A stretch of DNA of 64,000 nt from a virus. Lineage: Duplodnaviria; Caudoviricetes. Each line of letters begins with the position of its first letter. Positions within the stretch are counted from its first letter, which is position 1. Location: IMG/VR virus record IMGVR_UViG_3300037808_001421, positions 1,483-65,482 of that record; one strand, given 5' to 3'. A program made the position numbers and the translations under genes. Below the pieces are notes generated by a model that saw only the letters and a program-made list of their open reading frames with translations, searched no databases and had not been told where the DNA came from. Shown here in pieces: positions 18,291-57,229 of the stretch.

Positions 18291-18307
18291 GGTACAATGG
18301 GTCCGTG
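18291..18307 (+). promoter_or_regulatory. Class-2 promoter GTACAAT-N6-GTG (probable leaderless start)
   Basis: TACAAT 18293-18298, in-frame GTG at 18305; same geometry at three other sites. Confidence 0.55.
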
Positions 18308-19867
18308 TCCTACTCAGGTGTGACCCTAGACTTCTATGACGACGGCGGAGCCACGCTGAAGCGGTTCTTCGCCAGTGCGGAAGATCTCCCTGAGGTAATC
18401 AAGACCGCTTCAGTTCAGAAGCCACTTCAGGTCTCGGACGACGCGTTCGCGCTGACGATGCTCGACGACGGGCAGGTGCTCAAGAAGTTCGCGTGCACGG
18501 ATGCGGGCACGACGGCGATGTCAGTGTTGTACTTCCTGACTCATGGCGACAAGCTTCCAGACCTCGCGCAGAAGACCGCGGCTATGGCTCTTCAAAGGGC
18601 CTGCCACAAGTACGAAGTGGGCACCGAGGGCCTGCTGAAGACCGCAGGGTGGTGGTCCCGCTTTCTGCAGGGCGCGGGTAGGGATGTCGCCGCGGGCGCA
18701 GGCCCGCGGGTAGCGAAAGCAACGGAAGAGGCTGCCGGCCAGGCGGCCCAGCACTTTAGGGGTGCAGGTGAAGAGGTTGCAGAGCGTGCGGCCCAGCATT
18801 TCCGAGGCGCAGGAGATGACCTGCTGAAGAAGGCTCCAGAGGCTGCAGAGGAAGCTGTTCGTAGGGCTGCTGGCGCTGCTGGTGAGATCGGTGCTTCGGC
18901 AGGCAGGCGCGTTCTCACCACAAGTGGTATTGGCGCCGGCGCCGGTGCGCTGACTGCAGCCCCTGGTAAACGGTGGGAGGGTGCCCAAGAAGGTGCCGCG
19001 GCTGGCGTACTGGGTGGCCTCGCTGGTGCGTCCGTAGGTACCCCACACATGGGCGCTGCGCTGGCCGGTGGTGCTATGGGATTGAAGCCCTGGGAGAAGG
19101 CCGCTGGACTGGCCGATTCGGGTGCGGTAGATGTGACAGGCATGGAACCTGCGCCCAAGTTCGTTTCTGACCGTCCTTCGGATGAGAACCTGTTCGCTGT
19201 GACACTGTCAGACGGTACGCAGAGATACCCGATCGGCACGTGGACGCAGGTGAAGCAAGCCTCGGCGTACTTCGTTGATGAGAGCGTCCGCATGGACCCC
19301 GCGACACGTCACCAGTTCGCGACCAACCTGGCTGCTCGAGCTCAAGCCATCGGGTTCGACATGCCCGAGATGGTGAAAACGGCGGGTCTGGTTGAACGCG
19401 TGTCTGACAGTAGCCTCAACGCGGGACTGCAGATGCGAATCAACGCTTTTCCGTGCGGTGAGGCGCCGGCGGAAGCGAAAGAGGCGCTACGCCACATCTT
19501 TGAGAAGCGTGCCTCTCTCACTAGCGACGCGATGGCCGAGGCCATTCACACGTTCGACCAGCACTTCGGTCTACACACTCAGTACCGCAGGTACCTACCG
19601 GACCCATGGGAGACTGTCTTTGAGAAGGTCAAGGTCTCCAAGTTCCTTTGGGAAGACGGTGCGTCCAGAGTGACTGAAGACGAACTCGACAACCTGGCGC
19701 TGAACAACGCAGGTGATCTAGGTGAGATCTTCGCCGCGGAGGGCATGATCAAGGGTTTTGAGAAGGACCCCATCGGTGTCTTCAAGTCGCTGCCCGACAC
19801 CCATAAACGGGTCGTCGCGCGGCTGGCACACAGCATCGCCAACAGCGGACGGTCGAGCGGCGCCTAA
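18305..19867 (+). CDS. Putative virion/head protein with many K-x-A motifs and an internal glycine-zipper cassette
   Basis: IKTAS, QKTAA, LKTAG, EKAAG, VKQAS, VKTAG; AAQHFRGAG twice. Confidence 0.75.
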   Translation: MSYSGVTLDFYDDGGATLKRFFASAEDLPEVIKTASVQKPLQVSDDAFALTMLDDGQVLKKFACTDAGTTAMSVLYFLTHGDKLPDLAQKTAAMALQRACHKYEVGTEGLLKTAGWWSRFLQGAGRDVAAGAGPRVAKATEEAAGQAAQHFRGAGEEVAERAAQHFRGAGDDLLKKAPEAAEEAVRRAAGAAGEIGASAGRRVLTTSGIGAGAGALTAAPGKRWEGAQEGAAAGVLGGLAGASVGTPHMGAALAGGAMGLKPWEKAAGLADSGAVDVTGMEPAPKFVSDRPSDENLFAVTLSDGTQRYPIGTWTQVKQASAYFVDESVRMDPATRHQFATNLAARAQAIGFDMPEMVKTAGLVERVSDSSLNAGLQMRINAFPCGEAPAEAKEALRHIFEKRASLTSDAMAEAIHTFDQHFGLHTQYRRYLPDPWETVFEKVKVSKFLWEDGASRVTEDELDNLALNNAGDLGEIFAAEGMIKGFEKDPIGVFKSLPDTHKRVVARLAHSIANSGRSSGA

Positions 19868-19875
19868 TAGGGACC

Positions 19876-20748
19876 ATGCTAGTTACTCCTAAGAACTTTG
19901 GCCTCGACAGGGCCCATGCGCCGTCTCCGGTTCGTGGGTCTGCTGAGCCAATCATACGGTTCTTCTCGTACCACGACGCGCACCCCGTTGCGTTGTCGAT
20001 GGTGCTTGTTAAGGAGTTCGGGCATCAGTGGACCCTTTGGGACAGGGAGACCCTTCGAACAGAGATCATCAAGACCTTCAGGGCGACCAGCGTCTCCGAC
20101 CACAACTGGAGTAAAATCCAAGCCATCCGTACGCTGGTCACGTCAATTGGCGCCTGGAAAGAGTGGCATGTCTTCGAGAAGGTAGTCATCTCGCTCAACA
20201 ACGTGGTGCCCGACTTCGGCATGGCGCAGCGGTGTTCGCTATGCCAGCTAACAGCGGGTGTCGACATCATCAGCCAGGTCCGGAAAGAGGAGTACAACCT
20301 CGAGGTCTGCGGCTACGTGGCATCCAGCGCGCTAGCCGAGGGCGTCACCTACCTACCCGACCCCCTGGACTTTGCTCAGGCGTGCCTGGAGGAACCTCAG
20401 TATGAGTGCCTCGATTGTGGGAACATGGACGACGACGACCTGGACGATGAGCGATGTGACGCTTGTGTTGACAGGTACGGTGACGATCATCCCTTCAACG
20501 GTAAGCCTGCCGAGAATGTCCCTGACGAGGTAGGGCGCAACCTGCGCAAGTTCAAGAAACGTGACCCCGCCGCGGTCAAAAAGGCATACTCCAAGTTCCG
20601 TGGTAAAGAAGAGGCAGACGTAGACCCCGACAACCCTGAAGAGGTGCAGGCTGCAAAGCTGGCAGTCGCGGAGAATTACCGCCGACTTCGGAGAGGCCAA
20701 TTGGTCGATCAGTTAAAGGCGCTGAAGACTTGGGTAGCCTCGCCATGA
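19876..20748 (+). CDS. Hypothetical protein with CxxC pairs, upstream of portal
   Basis: ORF track; CLDC...CDAC. Confidence 0.75.
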   Translation: MLVTPKNFGLDRAHAPSPVRGSAEPIIRFFSYHDAHPVALSMVLVKEFGHQWTLWDRETLRTEIIKTFRATSVSDHNWSKIQAIRTLVTSIGAWKEWHVFEKVVISLNNVVPDFGMAQRCSLCQLTAGVDIISQVRKEEYNLEVCGYVASSALAEGVTYLPDPLDFAQACLEEPQYECLDCGNMDDDDLDDERCDACVDRYGDDHPFNGKPAENVPDEVGRNLRKFKKRDPAAVKKAYSKFRGKEEADVDPDNPEEVQAAKLAVAENYRRLRRGQLVDQLKALKTWVASP

Positions 20749-21476
20749 AGAAAGCTCAGTTGCAAGCCCTGGAGTCCGAGCTCATCGCAATCAAGGAGGC
20801 ATCCTTCGCCAAGAACATAGCCACCTTCGCCGGCCGGCTCAAGCCCGGGAACATCATGAAGGGGATGGGCGAGGGCTGGGATATGTCATCGCCCACAGGT
20901 CTCTTGAAGGGCACCACCGAGATGGGTAAGGACTTCAAGAAGGTGCTCGACACTCGGAAGAGTCAGATTGCAGCCGGTGCTGCCGATGGCGCTACGCTAG
21001 GGGACAAAGCCAAGGGATTCCTGGCGAAGAACCTGGGCGCAGGCCAGTGGCTTCAGCCCGGCGCCAAGACCAGCCAGGGTGCTCAAGGCGTTGCCGAGCG
21101 TCTGTCTCGAGGCGGTTGGACAGGCGAAGGACGTCTCACCAAGTACATGCCTTTGGGGCAGAAGGGCGGGCACGCTCTGTACGCAGGGATGGCTGTTCCT
21201 GGTCTGGTGAAGTCCATGAAGCATGGGGATACCGGACAGGGTGGAGTCGCTGAACAGGCTGGCGGCTTGGCAGGATTCACAATTCCAGGTATTGCAGGTG
21301 CAGGCTTGGGCATGACTCCCTTGGTGATGGCGCTGGGTGCCTCCGAGGCTGGCAAGTACCTGGGGCGTAAAATTGACCAGCGGAACGACCCACAACCCTT
21401 CGAACGTCTTGAGCGAGACCATCGTTCAGTCAAGTCAAACCTCATGAGACAAACACTAGAGACGGTACCGCGGTAA
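20745..21476 (+). CDS. Gly-rich putative cargo/membrane protein with ELIAIKEA leader
   Basis: MKKAQLQALESELIAIKEASF; C-terminal GxxxG hydrophobic segments. Confidence 0.7.
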   Translation: MKKAQLQALESELIAIKEASFAKNIATFAGRLKPGNIMKGMGEGWDMSSPTGLLKGTTEMGKDFKKVLDTRKSQIAAGAADGATLGDKAKGFLAKNLGAGQWLQPGAKTSQGAQGVAERLSRGGWTGEGRLTKYMPLGQKGGHALYAGMAVPGLVKSMKHGDTGQGGVAEQAGGLAGFTIPGIAGAGLGMTPLVMALGASEAGKYLGRKIDQRNDPQPFERLERDHRSVKSNLMRQTLETVPR

Positions 21477-23491
21477 TGTCCTCAGATCTTCTACTCACGG
21501 GGTCCAGTGCGTCGAGGTTTACCTCTCGAGCTGGCCGGTCTCTTTCAGGTGAAGGCGTCACGTCCATCAGGTACCCCTCTCCCTTCTTCGACATCGCACA
21601 CACGTACCTGCCGAACTCCACGAAGGATCTCCTCAAGTGGTGCAGGTTCTACTTCCTCACGAATCCGCTCATCAACGCGGTCTGCTACAAGATGGCCGAG
21701 TACCCGGTCACGGACCTGCTGTTCGACACCGAGGATACTGAGCTCAAACGCAGGTGGACTCACCTGTTTCGACACATCCTCAAGTTCAAGAAGTTCCAGG
21801 TCGAAGCAGGGCTGGACTACAACACCTACGGCAACTGCTTCATCTCGATCTTCTACCCGTTCATCAAGTTCCTCATCTGCACGTCGTGCAGGAAGCGCGT
21901 TCGGGTTGATCGCCAGAAGTACACGTTCCGTGAGCATAGGTTCCATGGGACGTGCCGCTCCTGCCAGCACACGGGAGTGTTCAAAGTCTATGACCACTAC
22001 ATCCGGGCGGTGCAGGACCTTCGACTCATCCGATGGAATCCTGAGTACATCACCATTCGCCACAATGAGGCGACGGGCGAGAGCCAGTACTACTACCGTA
22101 TCCCGCCAGGTCTTGCGAACGACGTCCGCATGGCGAAGCGGCACACCATCGAACGAACGCCTCAGATCTTTGTGGATGCTCTGAGGAAGAACAAGCAGCT
22201 GCTGTTCAGCAGGGACAACATCTTCCACCTGAAGCGTCCGACCATCGCACAGAAGGACAAGGGCTGGGGTCTGCCAATGATCCTGCCCGTGCTGAAGGAC
22301 ACCTTCTATCTGCAGATTCTCAGGAAGGCGCAGGAAGCTATCGCTACAGAGCACATTGTACCGCTGCGCATTCTGTTCCCGCAGTCGGCATCGAACAGTG
22401 CTGACGTTTACTCAACGCTCAACCTGAGTAACTGGCGTAAGAAAATCGAGCAGGAGATCCTGCGCTGGCGTCTCGACAACAACTACATCCCCACGATGCC
22501 CATCCCGGTGGGTCAGCAGACCCTTGGCGGTGACGGACGAGCTCTCATGCTCGCGCAAGAGTACCGTGTCTGGGCGGAACACATCGTCGCAGGCATGGGC
22601 GTACCCATCGAGTTCGTCTTCGGCGGAATGCAGTACTCGGGTTCGAACGTCTCGATGAGAATCCTGGAGAATCACTTCCTGGATTACCGTGCAGACCATC
22701 AGGCGCTCATCCGCGACTTCCTCATGCCCAACATCGCAGCCTTCATGGGCTGGGAGAGGGTGCCGTTCCACTTCCGCAACTTCAAGATGGCGGATGACCT
22801 ACAGCGCAACGCGTTCCTCCTGAACTTGAACCAGGCTGGCAAGGTTTCGGACAAGTCGTTGCTCGAGGAGAGCGACTTCGATTCCTTGGTCGAGAACAAG
22901 CTCATTGCTGAGGAGCAAAAGTACGAGCTCGAGAACCAGAGACAGTCCGCAGTCGCCCAGGCACGTATTCAGGGTGAGTCTCAACTGGCGCTGGTCAAGT
23001 ACCAGAACCGGGCGATGATGATGCAGCAGCAGGCGCAGGGCGCCATGCAGCCTGTGGGCCCGAACCAGGCGCCAGGTATGCAGGGCATGGTCAGCCCAGA
23101 AGCCATGGGACAAGGCATGGTCGCGCAGCAGGGCATGGCTAACATGACCGGCGAAGCGACTGCCGGCCAGCCTATGGAGCCGCCTGAGCAGGACCCTGCG
23201 TCCGCGGCCAATGGCGCCATGCCAGGAGGCATGGCGTCTCCGCTCAACGAAGAGAGCGAATTCGGCGCCGACCTGGTTAGCATTGCCAAGAAGATCGCGG
23301 CACGTCTCGACCAGATGCCTGATGACCAGAAGCAATCTCACCTGATTGACCTCCAGCAACAGCAGCCTCAGTTGTACAGCTTTGTCCTCCAGTTGCTGCA
23401 GCAATCCGCTGGCGCGCATGTACCTTCTCAAGCACAGCCGTTGCCCGAGCAGAGACCGCCTCGCCGCGGGCCTGAAGCCGCAGCAGTCTAA
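21476..23491 (+). CDS. Portal protein with Zn-ribbon insertion
   Basis: NPLINAVCYKMAEYPV, LDYNTYGNCF, IFHLKRP..GWGLP, IVAGMGVP; CTSC...CRSC insert; Q/M/P-rich tail. Confidence 0.8.
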   Translation: MSSDLLLTGSSASRFTSRAGRSLSGEGVTSIRYPSPFFDIAHTYLPNSTKDLLKWCRFYFLTNPLINAVCYKMAEYPVTDLLFDTEDTELKRRWTHLFRHILKFKKFQVEAGLDYNTYGNCFISIFYPFIKFLICTSCRKRVRVDRQKYTFREHRFHGTCRSCQHTGVFKVYDHYIRAVQDLRLIRWNPEYITIRHNEATGESQYYYRIPPGLANDVRMAKRHTIERTPQIFVDALRKNKQLLFSRDNIFHLKRPTIAQKDKGWGLPMILPVLKDTFYLQILRKAQEAIATEHIVPLRILFPQSASNSADVYSTLNLSNWRKKIEQEILRWRLDNNYIPTMPIPVGQQTLGGDGRALMLAQEYRVWAEHIVAGMGVPIEFVFGGMQYSGSNVSMRILENHFLDYRADHQALIRDFLMPNIAAFMGWERVPFHFRNFKMADDLQRNAFLLNLNQAGKVSDKSLLEESDFDSLVENKLIAEEQKYELENQRQSAVAQARIQGESQLALVKYQNRAMMMQQQAQGAMQPVGPNQAPGMQGMVSPEAMGQGMVAQQGMANMTGEATAGQPMEPPEQDPASAANGAMPGGMASPLNEESEFGADLVSIAKKIAARLDQMPDDQKQSHLIDLQQQQPQLYSFVLQLLQQSAGAHVPSQAQPLPEQRPPRRGPEAAAV

Positions 23492-34020: not shown

Positions 34021-34850
34021 TGCACCCATCCACCTACTACATCAAGTTCTTACTCGCCCGTAGCCATGGCACGGACGAGCCTGAGGACTGGGACAGTGTC
34101 AAAGACCATCTCTCGCAGCTAGGGCTCCCTCGTCTATGGGAGCCTGCCTTCGACCTGGCAAACGGGGTGTTTGCGCCTCCTATCCCGTTTCGCTTCAATG
34201 CCAAGACCCACAAGAGCACCGTCGCGTTCATGCGCGATGAGAAGATCTACACCATGTGGAAGAAGGACAAGGAGACCAAAGCTGCACTTCGGATCCTCGA
34301 GCGTCCTGCCATGCGGGAGGTCATCCAAGTACTCATCATGGGTGGCATCGAAGCGGATATCGTTCGGAACCGCATCATAGAGAGGTTCCAAGAGACCCTG
34401 TCGGCCAAGTCGATCGACGTGTACCGACACTACTTCTGGAACACGGACCTCACCACTATGCAGGAGTGGACAGCCATCCTGCGCGGCGACCCGATGTCCG
34501 ACCACTACATCGCCGCCCGGGGCGGCAGCCAGCAGCAGGCGTTGTTCAGGGCAGGCTTCAACCCGCTCATCGAACCGAAGGCTGCGCTCAGGGAAGCGTT
34601 CAGGTCTTTGGCTATGCGAGTCGAGGCCACTCGCAACCTGCCAGACACCAAAGAGACCAACAACATGCTGTGCGCTCTCACCAAAGAGATGACGGCGTTG
34701 TACCAGGTGCTCAAGGCCGACGGCGAAGGCGTCGGCGATGTGGCGAAGGGCCTCAAGAAGTTCAAGATAGCTTTGGACGAAACTCCGGCAGCGTCCATCT
34801 TGCAATTGGCAGGCAAGGGCAACTACAGTCGCTCTGGTGCCAACGAATAA
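34020..34850 (+). CDS. Hypothetical helical protein
   Basis: ORF track; start overlaps the previous stop. Confidence 0.7.
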   Translation: MHPSTYYIKFLLARSHGTDEPEDWDSVKDHLSQLGLPRLWEPAFDLANGVFAPPIPFRFNAKTHKSTVAFMRDEKIYTMWKKDKETKAALRILERPAMREVIQVLIMGGIEADIVRNRIIERFQETLSAKSIDVYRHYFWNTDLTTMQEWTAILRGDPMSDHYIAARGGSQQQALFRAGFNPLIEPKAALREAFRSLAMRVEATRNLPDTKETNNMLCALTKEMTALYQVLKADGEGVGDVAKGLKKFKIALDETPAASILQLAGKGNYSRSGANE

Positions 34851-44205: not shown

Positions 44206-44222
44206 GGTACGGTTTTCTTGTG
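44206..44222 (+). promoter_or_regulatory. Class-2 promoter GTACGGT-N6-GTG
   Basis: TACGGT 44208-44213; in-frame GTG 44220. Confidence 0.45.
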
Positions 44223-45428: not shown

Positions 45429-46063
45429 TCATGAAGACATCAAACGAACTGGATATCTTCGAAGCGCAGCTCGAGGAGTTGTCCTTCGACCTCGAGGACG
45501 GCCCGACCAAGCTGGCGGCGCTGGAGAAGGCGGCGTTCAGCCCGCGCGCTTCCCAGGCGATGACCTCCATCGGTATTGGTGCGGCCACCACGCTCGGCAG
45601 CGCGCTGGGCGGGACCGTCATCAACTCCATCCGCAGCGCGATGACCAAGGGCAAGAACTACAAGGGCATGCTCGATGTGAACCCGGACCTAGGGAAGAAA
45701 GACTCCAAGCAGGTTCAGCTGGCGTTCAACACGCTATCCAGGTTCAACCCGCACTATGCGTCGGACCCTTCTGTCGCCGGCGCCTACGTGCGGCAGCAGC
45801 TGGACATGGAGCGGGTAGACCTCAACAGCATCAACTCGCTGGTTGCTGCGAACAAGAGCATCAGTGGAGGTCAGCGCCCCACCTTCGACCCGGCAGGGTG
45901 GCACCAGACTGGTTCGAACCTTCTGGGGAACGTGCAGTCCGAGGGTGACCGGCTGCGCTCTCACATGGCGGACGCGAAGTCTCGAGCGGAGTACGAAGCG
46001 TACCGCAGGGGTTCAACGAAGGGCCCTGATGCAAGTGAGCTCAAGCGAGCCTTCGGCGGCTGA
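45425..46063 (+). CDS. Putative virion protein with acidic leader ending KLAALEKAA and a Gly-rich helix
   Basis: ORF track; motif content. Confidence 0.7.
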   Translation: MIMKTSNELDIFEAQLEELSFDLEDGPTKLAALEKAAFSPRASQAMTSIGIGAATTLGSALGGTVINSIRSAMTKGKNYKGMLDVNPDLGKKDSKQVQLAFNTLSRFNPHYASDPSVAGAYVRQQLDMERVDLNSINSLVAANKSISGGQRPTFDPAGWHQTGSNLLGNVQSEGDRLRSHMADAKSRAEYEAYRRGSTKGPDASELKRAFGG

Positions 46064-48621
46064 TGCTCACGAAGCTCGCCACGTTCTCAGGCGTCTCTCC
46101 CCAAACGGGGGAGCCGCTCGTCCAAATGTTCCGGCAAGGTGCATCGGTGGAGAAGACCGCCGGCCAAATGTCTCCGGACATCAAGGACTGGCTGAGCACG
46201 TACAAGTCTGACAAGGAGAACGTCCCCCTTCTCGTCAACGCGATGGGCGACTCGCGTATCTGGGGTCAGAACCGAAACGGTGACAACTTCTTCTGGCCGG
46301 CACTGTCCCACGACTGTCGCTGTCACGATCCTTCCAAGCATTCGATCGACAAGTTCACTGGAAAGCGCATCCCGGCGCACGGGTACTGGACCTTCCTCAT
46401 GGCGCACCCGTTCGTGCACCATAAGAACAAAGACCCGGGGCGTGCGTTCGGCAAGGTGGCGGTATCTACGCTCAACCCGTTGATGAAGCGCGTTGAGCTC
46501 GTAGTTCTCATCAACAGGCAACGTGCGGAGCAGTACGAGGCCGGTGAGTTCGTCGCGCGCATCGACCAGGGCGAGTTCCCGGATGTGTCGATGGGGACCA
46601 AGATCCCTTACGACACATGCTTGATTTGCGGCAACAAGTCGCGAACCAAGAAGGACTACTGCGAGTGCCTCAAGAAGTGGCGCATGGGGGCCATTCTCCC
46701 CGACGGCCGCATCGTAGGCGTAGACAACCCGCACCCGAGGTTCTTCGACATCAGCTTCGTGTTCATCGGCGCTGACAAGACCGCCAAGGTGATGACGAAG
46801 CTTGCTTCAGACTCGGGCCTTTGGGTGCCTGAATCCGTTGTTGATGCCGAACGGCTGTACGGTCCAGAGGAGAGTCTTGTGAAAACTGCAGGCGTCGGCA
46901 TGACCAATGAAGACTTTCTTCGTTTCTTCATGGGCAGTAAGGCTGCGAAGAAGGGCGTAGGCCGCTCTCTCGGTACGCACGGACGTACGGATGAGGCCAT
47001 AGACAAAGACGAGCCCTCACGGAACGAAGGCGTTCTACCTACCAACTACACGGAACATGACACTGTCGTGAGCAACGAAGCTCGAGAGAAAGAAGCAGCC
47101 GCGAAGCTCCAAGCCCCTCCGCACAGGGATAGGTATCCGTACGCAGGTCGTATGAAGTTCCGGGGTATGACTATCAACATCGAGAACGCGAAGGGTACTT
47201 GGCGCACGGGTGAAGGTTGGAAGACCTTTATGAAGTTCCCGTACGGTGAGATCGATGGCTCGATGGGCAGCGACGGTGATCCTGTTGATGCGTACATAGG
47301 TCCTGATGCCTCTGTTGAGAACGTGTACATCGTTCACCAGAACCACGTCGCAGGCCCCAACAAAGGTACCTACGACGAAGACAAGTGCATGCTGGGCTTC
47401 AAGACCGCGAAGCAGGCAGAGAAGGCATACAAGGGTCAGTACACTGGCGTTGATCCCTTCCGTTCTATCACCACCATGAAGGTCGACGCTTTCAAGAAGC
47501 TGGTCTTCAGTAAAGAGGGAGTAGGTGAGAAGTTGGCTGGCTGTGCAGAGGACCCCTGTAGCGGCGCTCCCGACACAGCGGGTGACGTCCTCGATGAGTA
47601 CTTCAACTACGGTAACCGTCGGCGTCACCGTAGGTTTACAGACAAGGTCACCAACGAGAGTACTACCCACGTAGGTTCGGGCTTAGGTGACACGTTTGAA
47701 GACGATGGCGCCGTACGCATGAAGACCAAGACTGCGGGCGTGAAGGACGCTGCGTGGAAGTTGGCGGAAATCAAGAAGGTCATCCCTGCGGATAAGGTCA
47801 TGCCTAAGGTCGTTGAGAAGCTGGACGCCCGCGAAAAGGACATCCCCAAGGACATCCTGGATATCCTAGGTAAGCTTCCACTTCCCGTGAGCCTATCCAC
47901 GCCCTCCGCAATGGGCATCGTCCTGCGCCCCAAGGAGTTCCAACGAGTCGTACTCGTGCGGATGGGCAAGGGTGACGTAGCAGACAAGCTCGACTCTGAC
48001 TGCAGCTGCTTCAAAGAGGGGGACGGGAAGCTGCCTCTCACTGGTGGCTTGGGTTATCCGGCTTTCAGCGCGGCGTTGATGCGGATGCTTCTACCATTCC
48101 TGGAGAACCGTTCGTTCATAGAGCCTGTTCTGAAGCGCCGCATCATTCGAATCTCGGTAACGGCCCCTGAGAAAAAGGAAGAGAAGGATGCAGATTCACC
48201 TCTTCTAACCAAGATAAGTAGTGCCTACAATTGGTACAGAAGCGAATGTCTCTCCGCGGCCAAACACGCACCGTATGCCATCAAGGAACACCCCGAACTG
48301 CAGTTGGCAGTACTGGGTCCTATGGCCGACGACTTCACCAAAAACGCCAGCGCGCAGGAAGCCGCGATGGGCGCGGCTATCGCTTCCATCCCCATTGCTC
48401 TGATGTATGCTTCCAGTCTGAAGCGGGCCAAGAATCAAGGACAAGCGATGGGAGCTATCAAAAGCTTCATCGCGGATCACCCAAAGCTTACAGCAATGGG
48501 AACCTCGGTAATGGCTCGAGAGCTAATGGAACACCCAGCCGTCAACAAAGCGGTCTCCGACGTGGCTTCGCGGTCACTCAAATCGGTGGCACGCTTCGTT
48601 GCACAAGCAGCCGGGGCATGA
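46063..48621 (+). CDS. Prohead-protease-like polyprotein with inserted InPase-like domain
   Basis: NRNGDNF, FVHH, DVSMG (candidate catalytic Ser), CLICG..C, FFDISFV; InPase-like IENAKG...YGEI..S.G.DGDPVD..DEDKCMLGF; position upstream of scaffold-like and capsid genes. Confidence 0.7.
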   Translation: MLTKLATFSGVSPQTGEPLVQMFRQGASVEKTAGQMSPDIKDWLSTYKSDKENVPLLVNAMGDSRIWGQNRNGDNFFWPALSHDCRCHDPSKHSIDKFTGKRIPAHGYWTFLMAHPFVHHKNKDPGRAFGKVAVSTLNPLMKRVELVVLINRQRAEQYEAGEFVARIDQGEFPDVSMGTKIPYDTCLICGNKSRTKKDYCECLKKWRMGAILPDGRIVGVDNPHPRFFDISFVFIGADKTAKVMTKLASDSGLWVPESVVDAERLYGPEESLVKTAGVGMTNEDFLRFFMGSKAAKKGVGRSLGTHGRTDEAIDKDEPSRNEGVLPTNYTEHDTVVSNEAREKEAAAKLQAPPHRDRYPYAGRMKFRGMTINIENAKGTWRTGEGWKTFMKFPYGEIDGSMGSDGDPVDAYIGPDASVENVYIVHQNHVAGPNKGTYDEDKCMLGFKTAKQAEKAYKGQYTGVDPFRSITTMKVDAFKKLVFSKEGVGEKLAGCAEDPCSGAPDTAGDVLDEYFNYGNRRRHRRFTDKVTNESTTHVGSGLGDTFEDDGAVRMKTKTAGVKDAAWKLAEIKKVIPADKVMPKVVEKLDAREKDIPKDILDILGKLPLPVSLSTPSAMGIVLRPKEFQRVVLVRMGKGDVADKLDSDCSCFKEGDGKLPLTGGLGYPAFSAALMRMLLPFLENRSFIEPVLKRRIIRISVTAPEKKEEKDADSPLLTKISSAYNWYRSECLSAAKHAPYAIKEHPELQLAVLGPMADDFTKNASAQEAAMGAAIASIPIALMYASSLKRAKNQGQAMGAIKSFIADHPKLTAMGTSVMARELMEHPAVNKAVSDVASRSLKSVARFVAQAAGA

Positions 48622-48687: not shown

Positions 48688-49275
48688 ATGGACGAGTTCC
48701 TAGCGGACCTCTTTGACACGTCAAACAACATCTCGTCGCTCTCAGGCGGTCAGCCCGCTGAAGACCTCGAGAAGCTCGCCCAAGCACACCTCATGAGTGA
48801 GATGCTTGCGGCCGACGGTTTCGACGTCAACAAACTCACCGATGACACAGTCGCCAAAGTCGCGTCTGTGTTGGGCTTCCAAGCGGCGCCGGCGCCCACG
48901 GCGCCCGCACCTGCGGCAGCGCCGACGGAGAAGGTCGCATCGACCGAAGAGCTCCTTACTGCCGCAGGTAAAGAGAAGGTTGCGGAAGCGCAGGCTCTCG
49001 GCAAGGTCATCGCGCATTCGTACGTCAGAGAGCTCGCTGAGCTGAACCAGAAGACGGCTGCCGCAGAAGCTGCCTCGGCTCCGGCAGCTCCCGCCGCCAA
49101 TGGTGCGCTCGAGAAGCTGGCCGAGGCCCGCCTCGCTGCGTGGATTCAGGAGCAGCAGGCTGCGCAACCCGCCGCCGCGCCTGCCGATGAGACCACCAAG
49201 CTAGCCGAGGCTATCGATCAGCGCGCCTACCAGATCGCGGTCGAGCGCGGAATCATCGTGGAGGAAGGGCAGTAG
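48688..49275 (+). CDS. Scaffold-like Ala-rich protein with seven K-x-A motifs
   Basis: EKLAQ, AKVAS, EKVAS, EKVAE, QKTAA, EKLAE, TKLAE; AGGAG RBS. Confidence 0.7.
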   Translation: MDEFLADLFDTSNNISSLSGGQPAEDLEKLAQAHLMSEMLAADGFDVNKLTDDTVAKVASVLGFQAAPAPTAPAPAAAPTEKVASTEELLTAAGKEKVAEAQALGKVIAHSYVRELAELNQKTAAAEAASAPAAPAANGALEKLAEARLAAWIQEQQAAQPAAAPADETTKLAEAIDQRAYQIAVERGIIVEEGQ

Positions 49276-49547: not shown

Positions 49548-50861
49548 ATGAGCACCCTAATGGACATGTTGAACGACTGCATCTCAGAGTCGATGTCTCA
49601 GCTGAGTGACCCCTCAGGCATGAGCAAGACTGCGGGTAAAGAGTGCGCCAAGTGCGAGCACGACAACTGCCCCGAAGGCTGCCCCAAGGGCTGCTCCTGC
49701 AAGCCTTTCGCTGACACAGGAAAGACCTCGAGCGTAGATCTTAGTGATCCGCTCAGCGTTGCGGATATGTGCGATTTCGTTGCGGATAATCTCGAGAAGG
49801 TCGCTGGCGACCCGCCGATGAACCCGCCGATGGACGCAGGTATCGCACCGGGTGGTCCCGGCAGCGCGATGGCGACCAACGAAGTTCCCGACAAGCCCCC
49901 GCTTCCGGACGCTGGTGGTATGGGTCAGGCCAGCGGCGCCAACCAGCCTCCGAAGCGGACAGATGCTACGGAGAAGGCCAACGTCAACGACGCAGCCAAC
50001 GCTTTCCCGACCAACCTGGACTCTGCTCCAGGCGGCACGACCAAAATGTCCTCGGTCCTCGACCTGTTCGCAGCCGGCCATCTCGAGAAGACTTCGGTCC
50101 TCGAGCTCTTCGCCAAAGAAGCTGCCAACGCCGAGCACCCTGCCAGCATCAGCGCGGGCACGGAGCCAGAGCTTCAGTCCGCCGCCGCCGCCAACTCGGC
50201 AGTGAGCCAGGGCACCGAAGCTGGTGAGCAGGTTCCTTCCGAGATGGGTAGCGACTCAGGTCGGGAGCTCATCGGTTCAAACGACTCGGCTATCAACGCC
50301 AGTAAGCAGCAGGCCAAGACCAGAACGGTCAAAGCGGATATGGCTGCTTGCCTCTCGGAGACGCCGATGTCGGCGTCGCACGATTCCGCTCTCAATAAGT
50401 CGCTCGAGAACACCTCCGAAGCGGGTGTGAAGATTGCTGCGGCTCGACAACAACTGCAGGAGTTCGCCAACGCGTCTCCAGAGAACCGTGCCAAATTGGC
50501 TGAGGCGGTGAAAATCGCCTTGGACGAGGAAGAGGAAGAAGTACCTCCGGGAAAGAAACTTCCCGGTGGCGAAGCTCCCCCTCCCGAAGCTATGGCGCCA
50601 CCCCCACCCGGAATGCCCATGGGAGAAGCGCCGCCGCGCCTGCCGATGATGGTTCCGGGCCAGGAGCCTGAGATGGTTCCGGGGATGGCTGGTCCCTCTG
50701 AAGAAGCGCTGGCAGCAGCCCAGTCCGGGGTTACGCCAGAAGAACTGGCCGAAGCCATGGTACTGATGGCATCCGCGGCACCGCCCCCGGCCCCCGAGCC
50801 GATGGCACCGCCGATGATGCCTGGTGGAGCTCCTCCGGTACCGGCAGCACCGGCAGCCTAA
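49548..50861 (+). CDS. Low-complexity scaffold/core-like protein with Pro/Met-rich C-terminus
   Basis: SKTAG, EKVAG, AKEAA, VKIAA, AKLAE; internal repeat SVL(D/E)LFA. Confidence 0.7.
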   Translation: MSTLMDMLNDCISESMSQLSDPSGMSKTAGKECAKCEHDNCPEGCPKGCSCKPFADTGKTSSVDLSDPLSVADMCDFVADNLEKVAGDPPMNPPMDAGIAPGGPGSAMATNEVPDKPPLPDAGGMGQASGANQPPKRTDATEKANVNDAANAFPTNLDSAPGGTTKMSSVLDLFAAGHLEKTSVLELFAKEAANAEHPASISAGTEPELQSAAAANSAVSQGTEAGEQVPSEMGSDSGRELIGSNDSAINASKQQAKTRTVKADMAACLSETPMSASHDSALNKSLENTSEAGVKIAAARQQLQEFANASPENRAKLAEAVKIALDEEEEEVPPGKKLPGGEAPPPEAMAPPPPGMPMGEAPPRLPMMVPGQEPEMVPGMAGPSEEALAAAQSGVTPEELAEAMVLMASAAPPPAPEPMAPPMMPGGAPPVPAAPAA

Positions 50862-50879: not shown

Positions 50880-51260
50880 ATGGAAAAGCTCAGCCAGACC
50901 AAGACGGCCTCCTTTCTGAAGCAGGCCGCGGCTACGATTCGTAGTCAGAAGGAAGACAACGACACGTTGTCCGCCGAGAACTCCGATCTTCGTGAGAAGA
51001 TTGCGGGTTTCGAACGCGAGCAGCGTGTCGAGGCTATCGCTCGGGACATGGAGGACAAGGGGTTGAACGACGCCTTGGACTTCAATGAGAAGGTCGCTTC
51101 TCTCCGAGAGCAGGACAACCTCGATGTCATGGAGGAAGCGGTCAAGGTCGCATCTCCCCAGACGCCGGGCCTGCACTTCCAGACCGACGACGACGCACCC
51201 GCTGGTTCCGGTGCAAGCGCTTTCGAAACCTTCATCGTGACCGGAGAGGTCCCGCAGTAG
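50880..51260 (+). CDS. Coiled-coil scaffold-like protein
   Basis: TKTAS, LKQAA, EKIAG, EKVAS, VKVAS; just upstream of the decoration/capsid genes. Confidence 0.7.
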   Translation: MEKLSQTKTASFLKQAAATIRSQKEDNDTLSAENSDLREKIAGFEREQRVEAIARDMEDKGLNDALDFNEKVASLREQDNLDVMEEAVKVASPQTPGLHFQTDDDAPAGSGASAFETFIVTGEVPQ

Positions 51261-51882: not shown

Positions 51883-53007
51883 ATGAGTGCAATTGCAGCC
51901 ACCGTCGAAATGTTCTGTCAGCGACTCGACGAGCCCGACGGAAAGACCAAAACAGCAGCCCTGGCGGGCCCCTGGATTCGCGACCGACTTCGCGAAGTGG
52001 CGTTCAGCCGCAACATCATTCCGCCGGACCCGGTGACCAAGGCCGACTGCCAGCGTTCCGTGAATCACGACACCCTCGTGAAGATCGTGGACGTCGAGCC
52101 CCGCTCGCGCGCCATGGCCATCGACTTCCGTTCCCAGCCCACGGCTCGCTTCATCAGCGCACCGCGTGCTGAGATTCCGTTCTTCACGGTTTCGTCCGAG
52201 AAGTACGAGAAGACGGAGCAGGAGCTTCTCGCCTACGAGATGCCCATCACGAAGATCATCGAAGAGAACAACGTGAAGGACATCCAGGAGGTCGAGGACC
52301 GCGAGTTCCTGCGGCATGGCGAGGCCAGCGTCCAGGGTCTGCAGACGGACACGAATGCCACGGTGGGCGTGAACTTCAACGCCACGAACATCCGCGCCGG
52401 CAATGTGAACGCGCAGCAGATTTCGATCGTCAAGGGTGAGCTCGCGCTCGCCGCCGACGGCATCGACTTCACTGTTCGTCCGCTCCAGCGTCCGGACCTC
52501 GTGTCGCTGTTCAAGCTGCTCGACGGCAACCGCCTGCGCGCTGACCGGATGCTGATGACGGAAGTCGACCACGACGACGTCCTCAACTGGACCGTCGAAG
52601 ACTTCGGCGACAAGATCCAGTCGGAGACGGTGGTCGACGGCTACAAGTACAACACCCTTCTGGGTCGTCGGGTGGTTCGTACCATCAAGACCGACATCCT
52701 GCGGGCGGGCAACTTGTACATCTTCGCGGCGCCGCAGTTCCTCGGGAAGTTCTACATCCTGAACAACACCAAGTTCTACATCGACAAGATCGCGAACTTG
52801 ATCACGTGGCAGTCCTGGGAAGACATCGCCATGGGCTTCGTGAACATCGCGGCCATCAGGAAGCTCGAGCTCTACCGAGGGTCCGTCCGTCCCACGGCGA
52901 CCGACGCCGGTTTCGCAGCCTTGCTGCCGGTCGAGGAAGAGGACCTGGGCGCGGAGAACAACCGCGTCACGGCCAACCTGCACTTCCCGCAGGTCGCTCA
53001 GTTCTAA
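51883..53007 (+). CDS. Major capsid protein (HK97-fold)
   Basis: 374 aa; strongly C-ending codons; IRDRLRE..F.R.IIPP; DIQEVEDREFL; strong RBS; followed by a hairpin. Confidence 0.8.
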   Translation: MSAIAATVEMFCQRLDEPDGKTKTAALAGPWIRDRLREVAFSRNIIPPDPVTKADCQRSVNHDTLVKIVDVEPRSRAMAIDFRSQPTARFISAPRAEIPFFTVSSEKYEKTEQELLAYEMPITKIIEENNVKDIQEVEDREFLRHGEASVQGLQTDTNATVGVNFNATNIRAGNVNAQQISIVKGELALAADGIDFTVRPLQRPDLVSLFKLLDGNRLRADRMLMTEVDHDDVLNWTVEDFGDKIQSETVVDGYKYNTLLGRRVVRTIKTDILRAGNLYIFAAPQFLGKFYILNNTKFYIDKIANLITWQSWEDIAMGFVNIAAIRKLELYRGSVRPTATDAGFAALLPVEEEDLGAENNRVTANLHFPQVAQF

Positions 53008-53061: not shown

Positions 53062-53082
53062 TCTCTCGGTATCGAGAAGCAC

Positions 53083-55933: not shown

Positions 55934-56006
55934 GACGTTTAGCTTCGGGAAGCACCGAGCTACCCGTAGAATTGGGTCAGAGGGGCGCCTAACGCCCATC
56001 CAGTGA

Positions 56007-56888
56007 ATGCTTGAAGTCACGAAGCTAGTTGTCCGAAGCTTTGACCTCGATCATCTCGATGTGTACTGGGAGATCAGCACATCAACAGATGCACCGGAGA
56101 GGTACCACTTCGACGTCCTTAGGAGTGTGGACGGCCCGGCCGGACCTTTTGAGGTTCTAGCAGCCGACCTATTGAACACGTTTACCTTCAGGGACGGTAG
56201 CGTGCAGGCGCTGCACAAGTGGCGACAGTACTTCTACAAGATTCGCGTACGTGACCTCGACAGTGGCGAGGACCGAGAGTACGGCCCCAAGATGTTGGCC
56301 GCGGAGCCTGACCGCATCGCTCTTGAGATTCAGCGACGGCATCAGCTGGTGAAGCAAGAGTTCACGGGTAGGAAGTGCTTGCTGTTCCCTGCACTGACGA
56401 CAGGCTTTCGATGCCGTAGCTGCTACGTGACCAATGATCGAGGGAACTCGCTGGGTCGGCAAAGTACCCAGAATTGCCCGACGTGTTTCGACACGACCTT
56501 TGTGGGCGGGTACGCGACTCCGATCCTTGTTTACCTGCAGCTCGAGCCCTCTCCCAAGCACGTGCAGAGGTCAGACATCAACGAGAGGGCGCCATCTGAC
56601 ACAACGGGGCGTCTTGCTGCATTTCCTCCAGTCAAGCCAAAGGACGTTGTCGTTGAGGCCGAGAACCGAAGGTGGCGCATAGAAAATGTGTCTTCTACTC
56701 AGAAGCTGCGCGCCACTCTTCACCAGGAGCTAAGGCTGCACGAGCTCCCGCGGGACGACATCAACTTCAAGCTTCCCGTCAACCTCAGTTTGTTCGACAC
56801 TGAGTTCTCTCCTGAGAGAGAGTTCACACGCCCAATGTCGTTAGGCAATGACACTGTCAGAGCCATCCCGGATTTGGTACCTCTGTAA
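56007..56888 (+). CDS. Putative head-closure/neck protein with FN3-like N-terminus and Zn finger
   Basis: LDVYW...YFYKIRV; CRSC...CPTCFDTTFVGGY. Confidence 0.55.
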   Translation: MLEVTKLVVRSFDLDHLDVYWEISTSTDAPERYHFDVLRSVDGPAGPFEVLAADLLNTFTFRDGSVQALHKWRQYFYKIRVRDLDSGEDREYGPKMLAAEPDRIALEIQRRHQLVKQEFTGRKCLLFPALTTGFRCRSCYVTNDRGNSLGRQSTQNCPTCFDTTFVGGYATPILVYLQLEPSPKHVQRSDINERAPSDTTGRLAAFPPVKPKDVVVEAENRRWRIENVSSTQKLRATLHQELRLHELPRDDINFKLPVNLSLFDTEFSPEREFTRPMSLGNDTVRAIPDLVPL

Positions 56889-57229
56889 TGAACGCAGTCA
56901 CCACAGAAGCCTTTACTAGCGAGCTTGAGAAGATTGCTCAAAGGTACCCAGCCACCAAAGAGCGGCTGAAGACTACGGCCAAAGCAATGGGCATCTTTGC
57001 TTTGGGCTATGGGCTAGGTTCTGGTCTAGGTAGAGTAGCGGGCCATCAGATAACAAAAAGCGCACTTCCAGGTCTGACCAACGCTGACCTGAAGAAAGTA
57101 TCCGTAGGTGTCGGGCTTCTTAGCGGCGCCGGCGCGCTAGGTATGGCTGCGTCCAAATCTCAGCTACGCAACCTGTGGAAAGAGGCTGACAAGGTCACGG
57201 ACTCCAGGTTCTCAAAGGCAGGCAAATGA
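56888..57229 (+). CDS. Small two-helix membrane-like protein with AFTSELEKIA leader
   Basis: MNAVTTEAFTSELEKIAQ; GYGLGSGLG and GVGLLSGAGALG segments. Confidence 0.7.
   Translation: MNAVTTEAFTSELEKIAQRYPATKERLKTTAKAMGIFALGYGLGSGLGRVAGHQITKSALPGLTNADLKKVSVGVGLLSGAGALGMAASKSQLRNLWKEADKVTDSRFSKAGK

What the first reader, a model, noticed from the sequence alone, without database searches (positions are those of the whole stretch)
18305..57229. Recurring K-x-[AG] motif: candidate protease-processed capsid-cargo system
Seen: a K-[TLIVQEA]-[AG] motif, usually after E or a hydrophobic residue (VKTA, EKLA, EKIA, LKEA, EKQA), recurs about 5-10 times each in the proteins at 18305, 31903, 44220, 46063, 48688, 49548 and 50880. 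It occurs once near the N-terminus of the major capsid protein (KTKTAA) and ends the leaders of many small proteins. By eye it is scarce in the sheath, tube, terminase and portal. Known: T4 gp21 and phiKZ gp175 prohead proteases cut head proteins after short Glu-ending motifs. Inference: the 46063 protease recognises K-x-A, processing scaffold/core proteins and releasing cargo modules inside the head. I know of no described K-x-A specificity of this kind.
Basis: partly seen in the sequence, partly recalled or inferred. Interest (0 to 1): 0.9.

Follow-up and report, generated by a model that had tools for sequence, protein, structure and literature searches.

The report
Lys-x-Ala cut motif of head protease
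A large uncultured phage packs the short signal lysine-any-alanine into the proteins that build and fill its head, most likely marking where its own capsid-maturation protease cuts, although no cut has been measured.

Summary
In my 59-protein gene set, K-x-A is enriched only in the seven named proteins: 70 sites against 27.4 expected (z 9.1). The reversed A-x-K is 27 against 27.6, and the other 52 proteins have 100 against 95.7.

The same motif is the top gapped dipeptide in head proteins of distant cultured relatives (Salmonella phage Arash, Vibrio phage D69). It is about twofold over expectation in 150 homologues of the 46063 N-terminal domain. That domain models with the T4 gp21/herpesvirus protease fold (Z 9.8), with invariant His120 and Ser176. 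It is bracketed by conserved K-x-A sites.

The capsid protein's N-terminal K-x-A is kept in 114 of 120 homologues while x varies. The same scan recovers T4's known I/L-x-E rule.

Best reading: a [L/M]-E-K-x-A|[S/A/G] cleavage code of the phage's own prohead protease. That is a new specificity of a known kind of system.

No cleavage is shown, and which bond is cut is inferred. This scan already reported the same code on at least 16 other genomes. I found it in no paper in the held library.

The parts
18305..19867 (+). 520-aa protein of unknown family, encoded two genes upstream of the portal. It has 10 K-x-A sites; the best-context ones are at aa 33, 112, 317 and 358.
   Evidence: K-x-A 10 vs 4.7 expected. 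No PHROG or Pfam hit. The start codon (GTG) is uncertain.
21476..23491 (+). Portal protein, used as a control with no enrichment.
   Evidence: tblastn to the Arash 'portal protein' (1e-79) and phage G gp14 portal. K-x-A 3 vs 2.6 expected.
31903..34020 (+). 705-aa multi-domain protein of unknown fold with 13 K-x-A sites. It is a candidate internal head protein and protease substrate.
   Evidence: K-x-A 13 vs 4.0 expected. In 93 homologues, 9 of 13 sites are kept as K-x-A in >=74%, and K-x-A exceeds A-x-K in 94 of 94 sequences. AF2 pLDDT is 88.2, with 5 sites in coil and 8 in helix or strand. No PDB fold match.
34837..35355 (+). 172-aa protein with one well-scoring leader site (K18-E-A20); a possible further substrate.
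   Evidence: Flank score 2.9. The count is not enriched.
42069..43871 (+). Terminase large subunit, used as a control.
   Evidence: phrog_675, E 1.1e-55. K-x-A 1 vs 1.4 expected.
44220..45428 (+). 402-aa head-module protein with 11 K-x-A sites. It occupies the position of a T4 gp67/gp68-like core protein upstream of the protease.
   Evidence: K-x-A 11 vs 4.3 expected. It has the highest flank scores in the window (8.6 at aa 144, 6.3 at aa 251). It is syntenic in L005-L008.
45431..46063 (+). 210-aa protein with leader sites at aa 27 and 33.
   Evidence: Homologues occur in L005-L008.
46063..48621 (+). 852-aa polyprotein. Its parts are a leader (aa 1-33), a prohead protease domain (about aa 34-248), a linker, an InPase domain (aa 361-480), a second linker, and a conserved C-terminal domain (about aa 569-852).
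   Evidence: K-x-A 18 vs 7.3 expected.
46153..46161 (+). K31-T-A33, the predicted N-terminal self-processing site of the protease.
   Evidence: K31 and A33 are >=90% conserved in 60 family members. An aligned K-x-A occurs in L005, L006, L008, Arash gp222 and D69 0270.
46420..46590 (+). Span from His120 (46420-46422) to Ser176 of DVSMG (46588-46590), the putative catalytic pair.
   Evidence: Both are invariant in alignment A1 of 60 sequences. The domain matches the T4 gp21 fold. I could not check residue-level superposition.
46777..46806 (+). K239-T-A241 and K246-L-A248, a double site at the C-terminal end of the protease fold. It is the analogue of a herpesvirus release site.
   Evidence: The consensus 'IGADKTAxVMxKxAS' appears in A1. 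T240 and K246 are >=90% conserved in A2. Flank scores are 3.2 and 4.5.
47143..47502 (+). InPase (PF18823) domain, flanked by K-x-A sites at aa 343 and 490.
   Evidence: Pfam E 2e-30, 105.8 bits against a cut-off of 26.8. The domain is present in 34 of 40 long family members.
48688..49275 (+). 195-aa acidic, Ala-rich scaffold-like protein. All 7 of its K-x-A sites have favourable flanks.
   Evidence: K-x-A 7 vs 2.5 expected. Scores are 2.3-4.8. Sites are aligned in L005, L006 and L008.
49548..50861 (+). 437-aa acidic protein with a Pro-rich C-terminus and 6 K-x-A sites.
   Evidence: K-[TLIVQEA]-A 6 vs 1.6 expected (p 0.0035). Plain K-x-A is 6 vs 3.7 (p 0.15), the weakest of the seven.
50880..51260 (+). 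126-aa acidic scaffold-like protein with 5 K-x-A sites.
   Evidence: K-x-A 5 vs 1.0 expected. K14/A16, K71/A73 and K89/A91 are invariant in 3 homologues while x varies.
51883..53007 (+). Major capsid protein. The predicted propeptide ends at K23-T-A25 (51949-51957).
   Evidence: phrog_2522. 27% identical to the Arash major capsid protein. In 120 homologues K23 is kept in 120, A25 in 114, and x is L/I/M/V/T/N. An aligned K-E-A occurs in Arash and D69.
56888..57229 (+). 113-aa protein with a leader site at K15-I-A17; a possible substrate.
   Evidence: Flank score 3.3. K-x-A 3 vs 1.7 expected, not significant.

Best explanation
K-x-A, in the fuller form [L/M/F]-[E]-K-[T/V/L/I]-A followed by S/A/G/E, is the recognition and cleavage motif of the phage's own prohead (capsid-maturation) serine protease. 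That protease is the N-terminal domain of the 46063 protein.

Inferred sequence of events inside the assembled prohead:
1. The protease frees itself at K31-T-A33 and at K239-T-A241/K246-L-A248.
2. It removes a 25-residue propeptide from the major capsid protein.
3. It chops the acidic scaffold/core proteins (48688, 49548, 50880, 44220, 45431) into small pieces that leave the head.
4. It trims or separates modules of internal proteins (18305, 31903, and its own InPase and C-terminal domains).

By analogy with T4 (I/L-x-E|), phiKZ (S/A-x-E|) and herpesvirus assemblin (x-x-A|S/T), the cut is most likely after the Ala, giving P3 = Lys and P1 = Ala.

Shown here: the enrichment, its specificity, its conservation, its co-occurrence with the protease family, and the protease fold.

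Inferred: that the motif is cut at all, which bond is cut, and which sites are used.
For: 1. Enrichment is specific to seven head-associated proteins and to the K...A order. K-x-A is 70 vs 27.4 (z 9.1), A-x-K 27 vs 27.6, and the rest of the window 100 vs 95.7. Replication, portal, terminase and sheath proteins sit at expectation.

2. It replicates independently. K-x-A is the top gapped dipeptide in the head modules of Arash (39 vs 17.1, z 6.1) and Vibrio phage D69 (44 vs 16.3, z 7.8), whose capsid proteins are only 25-27% identical to the window's.

3. It is family-wide. In the 150 best representatives of the protease family (2682 at E<=0.001), K-x-A is 1549 vs 705 and A-x-K is 699. For the C-terminal extensions I used the 51 of those 150 that passed my motif filter. 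There K-x-A is 357 vs 168 (z 16), A-x-K 168 vs 169, and K-x-A exceeds A-x-K in 44 extensions against 3 with fewer.

4. The flank context transfers. A flank matrix trained only on other genomes scores the window's seven proteins at mean +1.68 (70 sites) against -1.28 for the other proteins (100 sites), Mann-Whitney p 5.5e-10.

5. Positions are conserved while x varies. The capsid site keeps K in 120 of 120 and A in 114 of 120, with six different x residues. In 31903, K of K-x-A is 0.72 conserved against 0.38 for other K (p 0.002). In 50880 three sites are invariant in K and A.

6. The enzyme fits. The AF2 model has pLDDT 85.4. Its best PDB representative is T4 gp21 (Z 9.8, rmsd 2.7 A, 130 aa), then VZV protease (Z 8.1, rmsd 4.5 A, 132 aa) and HCMV protease (Z 6.3, rmsd 3.4 A, 130 aa). 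H120 and S176 are invariant. There is a weak PHROG hit to head maturation protease.

7. The motif brackets that fold on both sides in every relative aligned.

8. A positive control of the method works. The same scan on T4 gp67/68/21/22 returns I-x-E (15 vs 6.0) and L-x-E (16 vs 7.0) as the top two, and not in T4 tail/portal proteins. Multiple redundant sites in propeptides are the published pattern for phiKZ and SPN3US (passages of PMC9026906; PMC10052503).

9. Cutting after Ala, and a protease released from a C-terminal scaffold part at a site at the end of the protease domain, is how herpesvirus assemblin works (passages of PMC4498786).
Against: - No cleavage product has been observed for this phage or any relative.
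- Selection of the seven proteins was by eye, so the pooled test on them is post hoc.
- 49548 is weak for plain K-x-A (6 vs 3.7, p 0.15).
- In the confident model of 31903, 8 of 13 sites, including 6 of the 9 conserved ones, lie in helices or strands. Some conservation there could therefore be structural.
- The capsid protein's second K-x-A (aa 302-304) is also almost invariant inside the fold. Conservation alone therefore does not prove a cut site.
- Enrichment fades in more distant members: phage G head module 20 vs 11.2 (z 2.7), and Catera gp93-95 23 vs 12.2 (z 3.3).
- The Foldseek search of PDB gave only weak hits to the protease fold (E 0.017-0.12).
- Pfam has no protease hit for this protein.
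- Many family sequences are related, so site counts are not independent events.
Confidence: 0.7

Rival explanations
1. K-x-A is a binding or addressing motif, not a cut site. A short helix-start signal would dock core and internal proteins to the scaffold, capsid interior or protease, in the way the T4 capsid targeting sequence works.
For: - Well-scoring sites sit in N-terminal leaders of 11 structural-region proteins.
- Many sites in 31903 lie within or at the start of helices.
- The T4 leader has separable targeting and processing residues (passage of PMC9026906).
Against: - The motif also sits at both ends of the protease fold and between modules of the protease polyprotein. It recurs up to 7 times in a 195-aa scaffold-like protein. 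That is the pattern of redundant cut sites, not of one address.
- The a-x-b spacing matches the P3-P1 pattern that the same scan recovers for T4.
- The two roles are not exclusive.
Confidence: 0.12
2. The motif is processed, but not as proposed. Either the cut lies elsewhere in the motif (for example after Lys), or a different enzyme, host or phage, does the cutting.
For: - Which bond is cut is inferred only by analogy.
- Lys is the most invariant position (K 120 of 120 at the capsid site), as expected for a P1 residue of a trypsin-like cut.
- P1' is not uniform: E in 86 of 120 capsid homologues, but S/A/G in scaffolds.
Against: - R-x-A is not enriched (17 vs 19.4). Ala is as specific as Lys, since K-x-G and K-x-S are not enriched. 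That is unusual for a cut after a basic residue.
- The motif tracks the phage protease family in phages isolated on Salmonella and on Bacillus and in a Vibrio phage, which argues against a host enzyme.
- I recognised no other protease among the window proteins I scanned, although not all 59 were scanned.
Confidence: 0.1
3. The motif has no processing role. K-x-A would be a by-product of composition and helix structure in Ala/Lys/Glu-rich, partly related proteins, kept by descent.
For: - The proteins are Ala-rich (10-25% Ala) and largely helical where modelled.
- Shuffles keep only global composition.
- Homologous proteins share sites by descent.
Against: - The reversed A-x-K, with the same composition, sits exactly at expectation in the window, in the family extensions and in 31903 homologues.
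- Position x varies while K and A stay.
- Unrelated proteins in phages with 25-27% identical capsid proteins show the same excess and the same flanks.
- The low-complexity K/A run in the UvsX-like protein 5411-6793 raises its count but scores negative on flanks.
Confidence: 0.06

Closest known systems
Phage T4 prohead protease gp21 with its core substrates (gp22, gp67, gp68, internal proteins, gp23, gp24)
   Same: - Same fold by model comparison: 5jbl_A, Z 9.8, rmsd 2.7 A, 130 residues.
- Same gene neighbourhood logic: small core proteins, protease, scaffold, capsid protein.
- Same statistical signature: one a-x-b motif saturates the core proteins.
- N-terminal leaders removed from internal proteins, per passages of PMC9026906.
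   Different: - The motif is K-x-A, not (I/L)-x-E. I/L-x-E is not among the top enriched pairs here.
- The protease carries a Cys-rich insertion (C186, C189, C200) and a long C-terminal polyprotein with an InPase domain.
- No Pfam protease family hit.
phiKZ gp175 / SPN3US gp245 prohead proteases of giant phages
   Same: - Many head and internal proteins carry several redundant motif copies in their propeptides.
- The motif has P3-x-P1 form, with Ser preferred at P1'.
- Source: passages of PMC10052503 and PMC9026906.
   Different: - Those enzymes cut after Glu (A-x-E, S/A-x-E). Here Lys and Ala are the fixed residues.
- The two phage groups are not close: tblastn with the window's protease domain found no phiKZ-like record among its 233 hits.
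Herpesvirus assemblin (pUL26 protease-scaffold fusion; R- and M-sites)
   Same: - Related fold: VZV protease Z 8.1 (rmsd 4.5 A, 132 aa), HCMV protease Z 6.3 (rmsd 3.4 A, 130 aa).
- The cut is after Ala with Ser/Thr next: YLQA-T and VQA-S in pseudorabies virus (passage of PMC4498786).
- The protease is the N-terminal domain of a longer protein and frees itself at a site at the end of the fold.
   Different: - P3 is Lys here, rather than a hydrophobic or Gln residue.
- There are dozens of sites in many proteins instead of two sites.
- I could not test a Ser-His-His triad.
- This is a bacterial virus with a T4-like gene order.
Earlier reports of this same scan on other genomes (for example e1-6049539, e1-5356200, e1-5745388)
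   Same: - Same K-x-A(-S) code.
- Same protease family.
- Same relatives (Arash, phage G).
- Same conclusion that no cut has been measured.
   Different: - This is a different genome.
- Added here: the T4 positive control of the method, a flank matrix trained elsewhere and applied to this window, a 120-homologue test of the capsid site, and the finding that many 31903 sites lie in folded elements.

Membership tests
T4 gp21 / herpesvirus-assemblin-fold prohead serine proteases | The characteristic protease fold | tested here: met
   AF2 model of aa 1-290, pLDDT 85.4. VIA-align against 48,161 chains: 5jbl_A (T4 gp21) Z 9.8, rmsd 2.7 A, 130 aligned; 1vzv_A Z 8.1, rmsd 4.5 A, 132 aligned; 8j3s_A Z 6.3, rmsd 3.4 A, 130 aligned. 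The next unrelated rows are at Z <=5.5. Foldseek alone was weak, with E 0.017 for 1at3_A and 0.12 for 5jbl_B.
T4 gp21 / herpesvirus-assemblin-fold prohead serine proteases | Conserved catalytic His and Ser, His before Ser in the sequence | tested here: inconclusive
   H120 and S176 (DVSMG) are invariant in 60 sequences. In A2, H119 and H120 are invariant and S176 is >=90% conserved in 40 sequences. Order and spacing fit. The tools gave no residue-level superposition on the gp21 active site, so equivalence is inferred.
T4 gp21 / herpesvirus-assemblin-fold prohead serine proteases | Sequence-profile membership in a curated protease family | tested here: inconclusive
   Pfam has no protease family and reports only InPase. 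PHROGs phrog_18299 'head maturation protease' hits at E 3.7e-5 over aa 108-215. phmmer against PDB sequences gives nothing. Distant tblastn hits are annotated capsid maturation or prohead protease in Gordonia and Rhodococcus phages.
T4 gp21 / herpesvirus-assemblin-fold prohead serine proteases | Gene placed in the head module next to scaffold and major capsid genes | tested here: met
   The order terminase, 44220, 45431, protease, 48688, 49548, 50880, 51303, capsid protein is conserved in L005, L006 and L008. It is paralleled in Arash and D69.
T4-type specificity (cut after Glu at I/L-x-E) as in T4, and S/A-x-E in phiKZ/SPN3US | Substrates enriched in x-x-E motifs | tested here: not met
   In the seven proteins the top gapped pairs are KxA, CxC, ExV, DxC, ExL and DxF. 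No a-x-E pair is among them. The same scan finds IxE and LxE first in T4 core proteins.
Prohead protease (any family) | Demonstrated proteolysis of head proteins at the motif | not testable with these tools
   No experimental data were found. The Arash paper has no mention, the phage G multi-omics paper names gp19 a head maturation protease but maps no cuts, and Gonzalez et al. 2020 is not held.
InPase domain (Pfam PF18823) | Profile match above the curated cut-off | tested here: met
   aa 361-480, E 2e-30, 105.8 bits against a cut-off of 26.8. The domain is present in 34 of 40 long family members. Enzymatic activity was not tested.
T4-like capsid targeting sequence (leader removed by the prohead protease) | Short N-terminal leader ending in the protease motif on proteins packaged in the head | tested here: inconclusive
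   11 structural-region proteins have a well-scoring K-x-A within the first 45 residues. Plain counts are not above chance (18 of 59 vs 14.2 expected). Packaging and targeting cannot be tested here.

The most novel reading that the evidence does not exclude
K-x-A is a sequence-readable 'load-and-cut' code. It would be used by a very large, almost wholly uncultured clade of 100-200-kb phages (2682 protease clusters at 50% identity). With it, the complete set of scaffold, internal and injected head proteins, including enzymes such as the InPase module, could be predicted from any genome of the clade. Its P1-Ala rule would be shared with herpesvirus assemblin rather than with the Glu-specific phage enzymes. 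That would point to an old split in specificity within this protease fold.
Probability: 0.35. Interest if true: 0.7.

Novelty: new variant of a known kind. Interest (0 to 1): 0.55.

Why it matters
Prohead proteases decide which proteins stay in a phage head and in what form. For the studied large phages (T4, phiKZ, SPN3US) the rule is 'cut after Glu'.

A different, simple rule for a family with thousands of metagenomic members would let annotators mark propeptides, scaffolds and candidate ejected proteins in genomes where nearly every head gene is 'hypothetical'. It would also give a ready design for packaging foreign proteins into such heads.

The rule is directly testable in two cultured relatives, Arash and the Vibrio D69 group. 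It is not a new kind of system, and it has not been measured.

Tried and rejected
- Complex prediction: protease domain (aa 34-250, alignment A1) with the 50880 protein (alignment A3). The verdict was 'no answer', with scores 0.32, 0.00 and 0.00. I use it neither for nor against.
- Foldseek of the protease model against PDB gave only weak rows. The VIA-align wide search was needed.
- phmmer of the protease domain against PDB sequences gave nothing relevant.
- The capsid protein against PDB sequences matched only phage G gp27 (6wkk, E 0.0012). Its deposited chain of 280 aa does not tell a mature N-terminus.
- A high-scoring K-x-A in the fused RNA polymerase (aa 1467) looked like a possible virion-RNAP cut site. 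It is not kept in three relatives (K-L-S, K-E-G, deleted), so I dropped it.
- Identity of 31903: the atlas search gave no usable hit. tblastn against phages gave none. Foldseek against PDB gave none, and BFVD gave only an uncharacterised homologue.
- Identity of the other K-x-A-rich proteins: no PHROG or Pfam family.
- Looking for measured cuts: the Arash paper has 0 mentions of protease or cleavage. The phage G multi-omics preprint maps no cuts. Gonzalez et al. 2020 is not held. A search for gp21 catalytic residue numbers found nothing useful, so I give no T4 residue numbers.
- Literature search for 'K-X-A', 'KXA motif' or 'Lys-X-Ala' together with prohead or capsid maturation protease: none of the 15 listed of 21 papers holds any of the three motif terms.
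- Supplementary tables of the Arash and SPN3US papers, which may hold peptide-level data, were closed. I did not request them.
- The compositional explanation is rejected on the A-x-K control.

Full report
WHAT THE WINDOW IS. The window is 64 kb of a 65.5-kb IMG/VR virus record that CheckV estimates to be 34% complete. That implies a phage of roughly 190 kb.

Genes on the minus strand up to about 18.28 kb are a replication module: DNA polymerase, primase, DnaB-like helicase, UvsX-like recombinase, Cas4-like exonuclease and a helicase.

From 18.3 kb onward the plus strand carries these genes:
- the portal, 21476-23491
- a 2063-aa fused RNA polymerase beta/beta' protein
- the terminase large subunit, 42069-43871
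- a head module ending in the major capsid protein, 51883-53007
- a tail sheath, 57976-61206

The closest cultured relatives are distant. Salmonella phage Arash and Vibrio phages D69, D148 and D181 have capsid proteins 25-27% identical to the window's. Bacillus phage G matched only through the protease domain (31% identical).

THE OBSERVATION. I curated 59 ORFs by length and codon-position GC and shuffled each protein 2000 times.

For K-[TLIVQEA]-A the counts against expectation are:
- 18305: 7 vs 2.3
- 31903: 10 vs 2.0
- 44220: 9 vs 2.1
- 46063: 13 vs 3.0
- 48688: 7 vs 1.6
- 49548: 6 vs 1.6
- 50880: 5 vs 0.5

Pooled over the seven, K-x-A is 70 vs 27.4 (z 9.1) and K-x-A-[SGA] is 39 vs 7.7 (z 11.8). 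The reversed A-x-K, which controls for composition and helical bias, is 27 vs 27.6. K-x-G is depleted (9 vs 17.0), and K-x-S and R-x-A are not enriched. The motif is therefore Lys-x-Ala, not K-x-[AG].

The other 52 proteins have 100 vs 95.7. Sheath, terminase and portal have 0, 1 and 3 sites, which is at or below expectation.

A scan of all 400 gapped dipeptides puts K-x-A first in the seven proteins and not in the rest. Because the seven were chosen by eye, the pooled statistic is partly circular. The weight lies on the independent tests below.

INDEPENDENT REPLICATION. The same unbiased scan on the head modules of Arash (gp219-225) and D69 (0267-0274) again ranks K-x-A first: 39 vs 17.1 and 44 vs 16.3. 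L-x-K, M-x-K and K-x-x-S also stand out, which gives [L/M]-x-K-x-A-S.

The N-terminal domain of the 46063 protein has 2682 cluster representatives at E<=0.001 in a 1.84-billion-protein library. In the best 150 of these, K-x-A is 1549 vs 705 expected and A-x-K is 699.

For the C-terminal extensions I used the 51 of the 150 that passed my filter. There K-x-A is 357 vs 168 (z 16), A-x-K is 168 vs 169, and the logo is [L/M/F]-E-K-[T/V/L]-A-[S/E/A].

I trained a flank matrix only on those foreign sequences and applied it to the window. The 70 sites in the seven proteins score a mean of +1.68. The 100 K-x-A sites elsewhere score -1.28 (p 5.5e-10).

CONSERVATION.
- Five related IMG/VR loci were found. 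Three of them, L005, L006 and L008, share the gene order terminase, 44220, 45431, protease, 48688, 49548, 50880, 51303, capsid protein.
- Sites align between homologues while the middle residue changes.
- The capsid protein's K23-x-A25 is K in 120 of 120 homologues and A in 114 of 120. The middle residue x is L, I, M, V, T or N. The 22 residues before the site are less conserved (47% mean identity) than residues 26-60 (70%).
- Arash and D69 have K-E-A at the aligned place.
- In 93 homologues of the 31903 protein, 9 of 13 sites are kept as K-x-A in at least 74%. K of K-x-A is 0.72 conserved against 0.38 for other Lys (p 0.002). K-x-A outnumbers A-x-K in 94 of 94 sequences.

THE ENZYME. An AlphaFold2 model of aa 1-290 of the 46063 protein, built from a 60-sequence alignment, has mean pLDDT 85.4.

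- Aligned against 48,161 PDB representatives, its best match is the T4 prohead protease gp21 (5jbl_A: Z 9.8, rmsd 2.7 A, 130 residues).
- Next come varicella-zoster protease (Z 8.1, rmsd 4.5 A, 132 residues) and cytomegalovirus protease (Z 6.3, rmsd 3.4 A, 130 residues). Unrelated rows start at Z 5.5. Foldseek alone was weak.
So are Cys186, Cys189 and Cys200 of an inserted Cys cluster.
- K31/A33 before the fold are at least 90% conserved. K246, in the double site after it ('IGADKTAxVMxKxAS'), is at least 90% conserved.
- The same bracketing is seen in Arash gp222, D69 0270 and phage G gp19.

Downstream lie further sites, an InPase domain (PF18823, aa 361-480, E 2e-30) present in 34 of 40 long relatives, and a conserved C-terminal domain preceded by the invariant K566.

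CONTROL OF THE METHOD AND CHOICE OF THE BOND. Run on T4 gp67, gp68, gp21 and gp22, the same scan returns I-x-E and L-x-E as the top two pairs (15 vs 6.0 and 16 vs 7.0). It does not return them in T4 portal and tail proteins. This is the published gp21 rule.

phiKZ cuts after Glu at S/A-x-E and SPN3US at A-x-E, with redundant sites in propeptides (passages read in PMC9026906, and PMC10052503). In these systems the enriched a-x-b pair is P3-x-P1.

Herpesvirus assemblin, the other branch of the fold, cuts after Ala (YLQA-T and VQA-S in pseudorabies virus). It frees itself from a C-terminal scaffold part at a site at the end of the protease domain (passage of PMC4498786).

I therefore infer P3 = Lys, P1 = Ala and a cut after Ala. 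This is analogy, not measurement.

WHAT SPEAKS AGAINST OR LIMITS IT.
- No cut has been observed in any relative. The Arash paper lists gp220-226 as virion proteins but never mentions protease or cleavage.
- The 31903 protein models as a confidently folded multi-domain protein (pLDDT 88.2). Eight of its 13 sites, including six of the nine conserved ones, lie in helices or strands. So not all sites are likely to be cut, and some conservation may be structural.
- The capsid protein's internal K302-I-A304 is also nearly invariant.
- 49548 is weak for plain K-x-A.
- Enrichment is modest in phage G (z 2.7) and in the cluster C mycobacteriophage Catera (z 3.3).
- 'Cargo release' is supported only in the sense that an InPase module sits between sites in the protease polyprotein. 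The other substrates have no recognisable function.

STANDING. This is a known kind of system, a prohead protease with a short recognition code and redundant sites in scaffold, core and capsid proteins. It has a specificity that I found in no paper of the held library.

It is not new to this scan. At least 16 earlier reports on other genomes describe the same Lys-x-Ala code, name Arash and phage G as relatives, and also state that no cut has been measured. Three first-reader notes describe the protease-InPase fusion. I reached my reading before opening those notes, and they agree with it.

I rate it a new variant of a known kind. Confidence is about 0.7 that K-x-A is the protease's cleavage motif, and lower that the cut is after Ala.

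Noticed in passing
L006:2943-7097 and L007:4292-7171 (homologues of window 42069-43871): The terminase large subunit is 600 aa in the window. Its homologues are 1384 and 959 aa, and the match is split into two or three blocks. This looks like intein-type insertions. I did not scan these two proteins themselves against Pfam.
   Followed up: partly
relatives of window 46063-48621 (alignment A2): 13 of 40 long protease-family members carry LAGLIDADG/Hint intein domains inside the protease gene. A few carry DUF5661, cupin or GNAT modules in place of, or beside, InPase.
   Followed up: partly
window 24522-30713 (+): A single 2063-aa ORF matches several RNA polymerase beta-subunit PHROG families along its length and contains NADFDGD, so beta and beta' are fused. 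In Arash an RNA polymerase beta' subunit is listed among virion proteins. Whether this one is packaged is unknown. Its one high-scoring K-x-A (aa 1467) is not conserved.
   Followed up: partly
window 46618-46668 (+), aa 186-202 of the protease: A Cys cluster (C186-x-x-C189 ... C200-x-C202) is inserted just after the catalytic Ser strand. C186, C189 and C200 are invariant in 60 relatives. It is probably a zinc knuckle. I recall no such feature in T4 gp21; that is from memory, not from a call.
   Followed up: no
window 31903-34020 (+): A family of about 100 metagenomic homologues (43-54% identical) folds with high confidence (pLDDT 88.2). It has no Foldseek match in PDB and only an uncharacterised homologue in BFVD.
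   Followed up: partly
window 5411-6793 (-): The UvsX-like recombinase has an N-terminal Lys/Ala-rich low-complexity tail (a KKKAATKKATTKKAP-type run). This inflates its K-x-A count (10 vs 4.1), but with negative flank scores. It is a false positive for any simple K-x-A counter.
   Followed up: yes
window 50511-50861 (+), C-terminal third of the 49548 protein: A long Pro/Met/Ala/Glu-rich low-complexity tail (13% Pro overall) follows the last K-x-A sites. Its function is unknown.
   Followed up: no
window about 18277/18305: A divergent switch point lies between the minus-strand replication module and the plus-strand structural half. The start of the first plus-strand gene (TTG 18272 or GTG 18305) is uncertain and has no obvious ribosome-binding site.
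   Followed up: no
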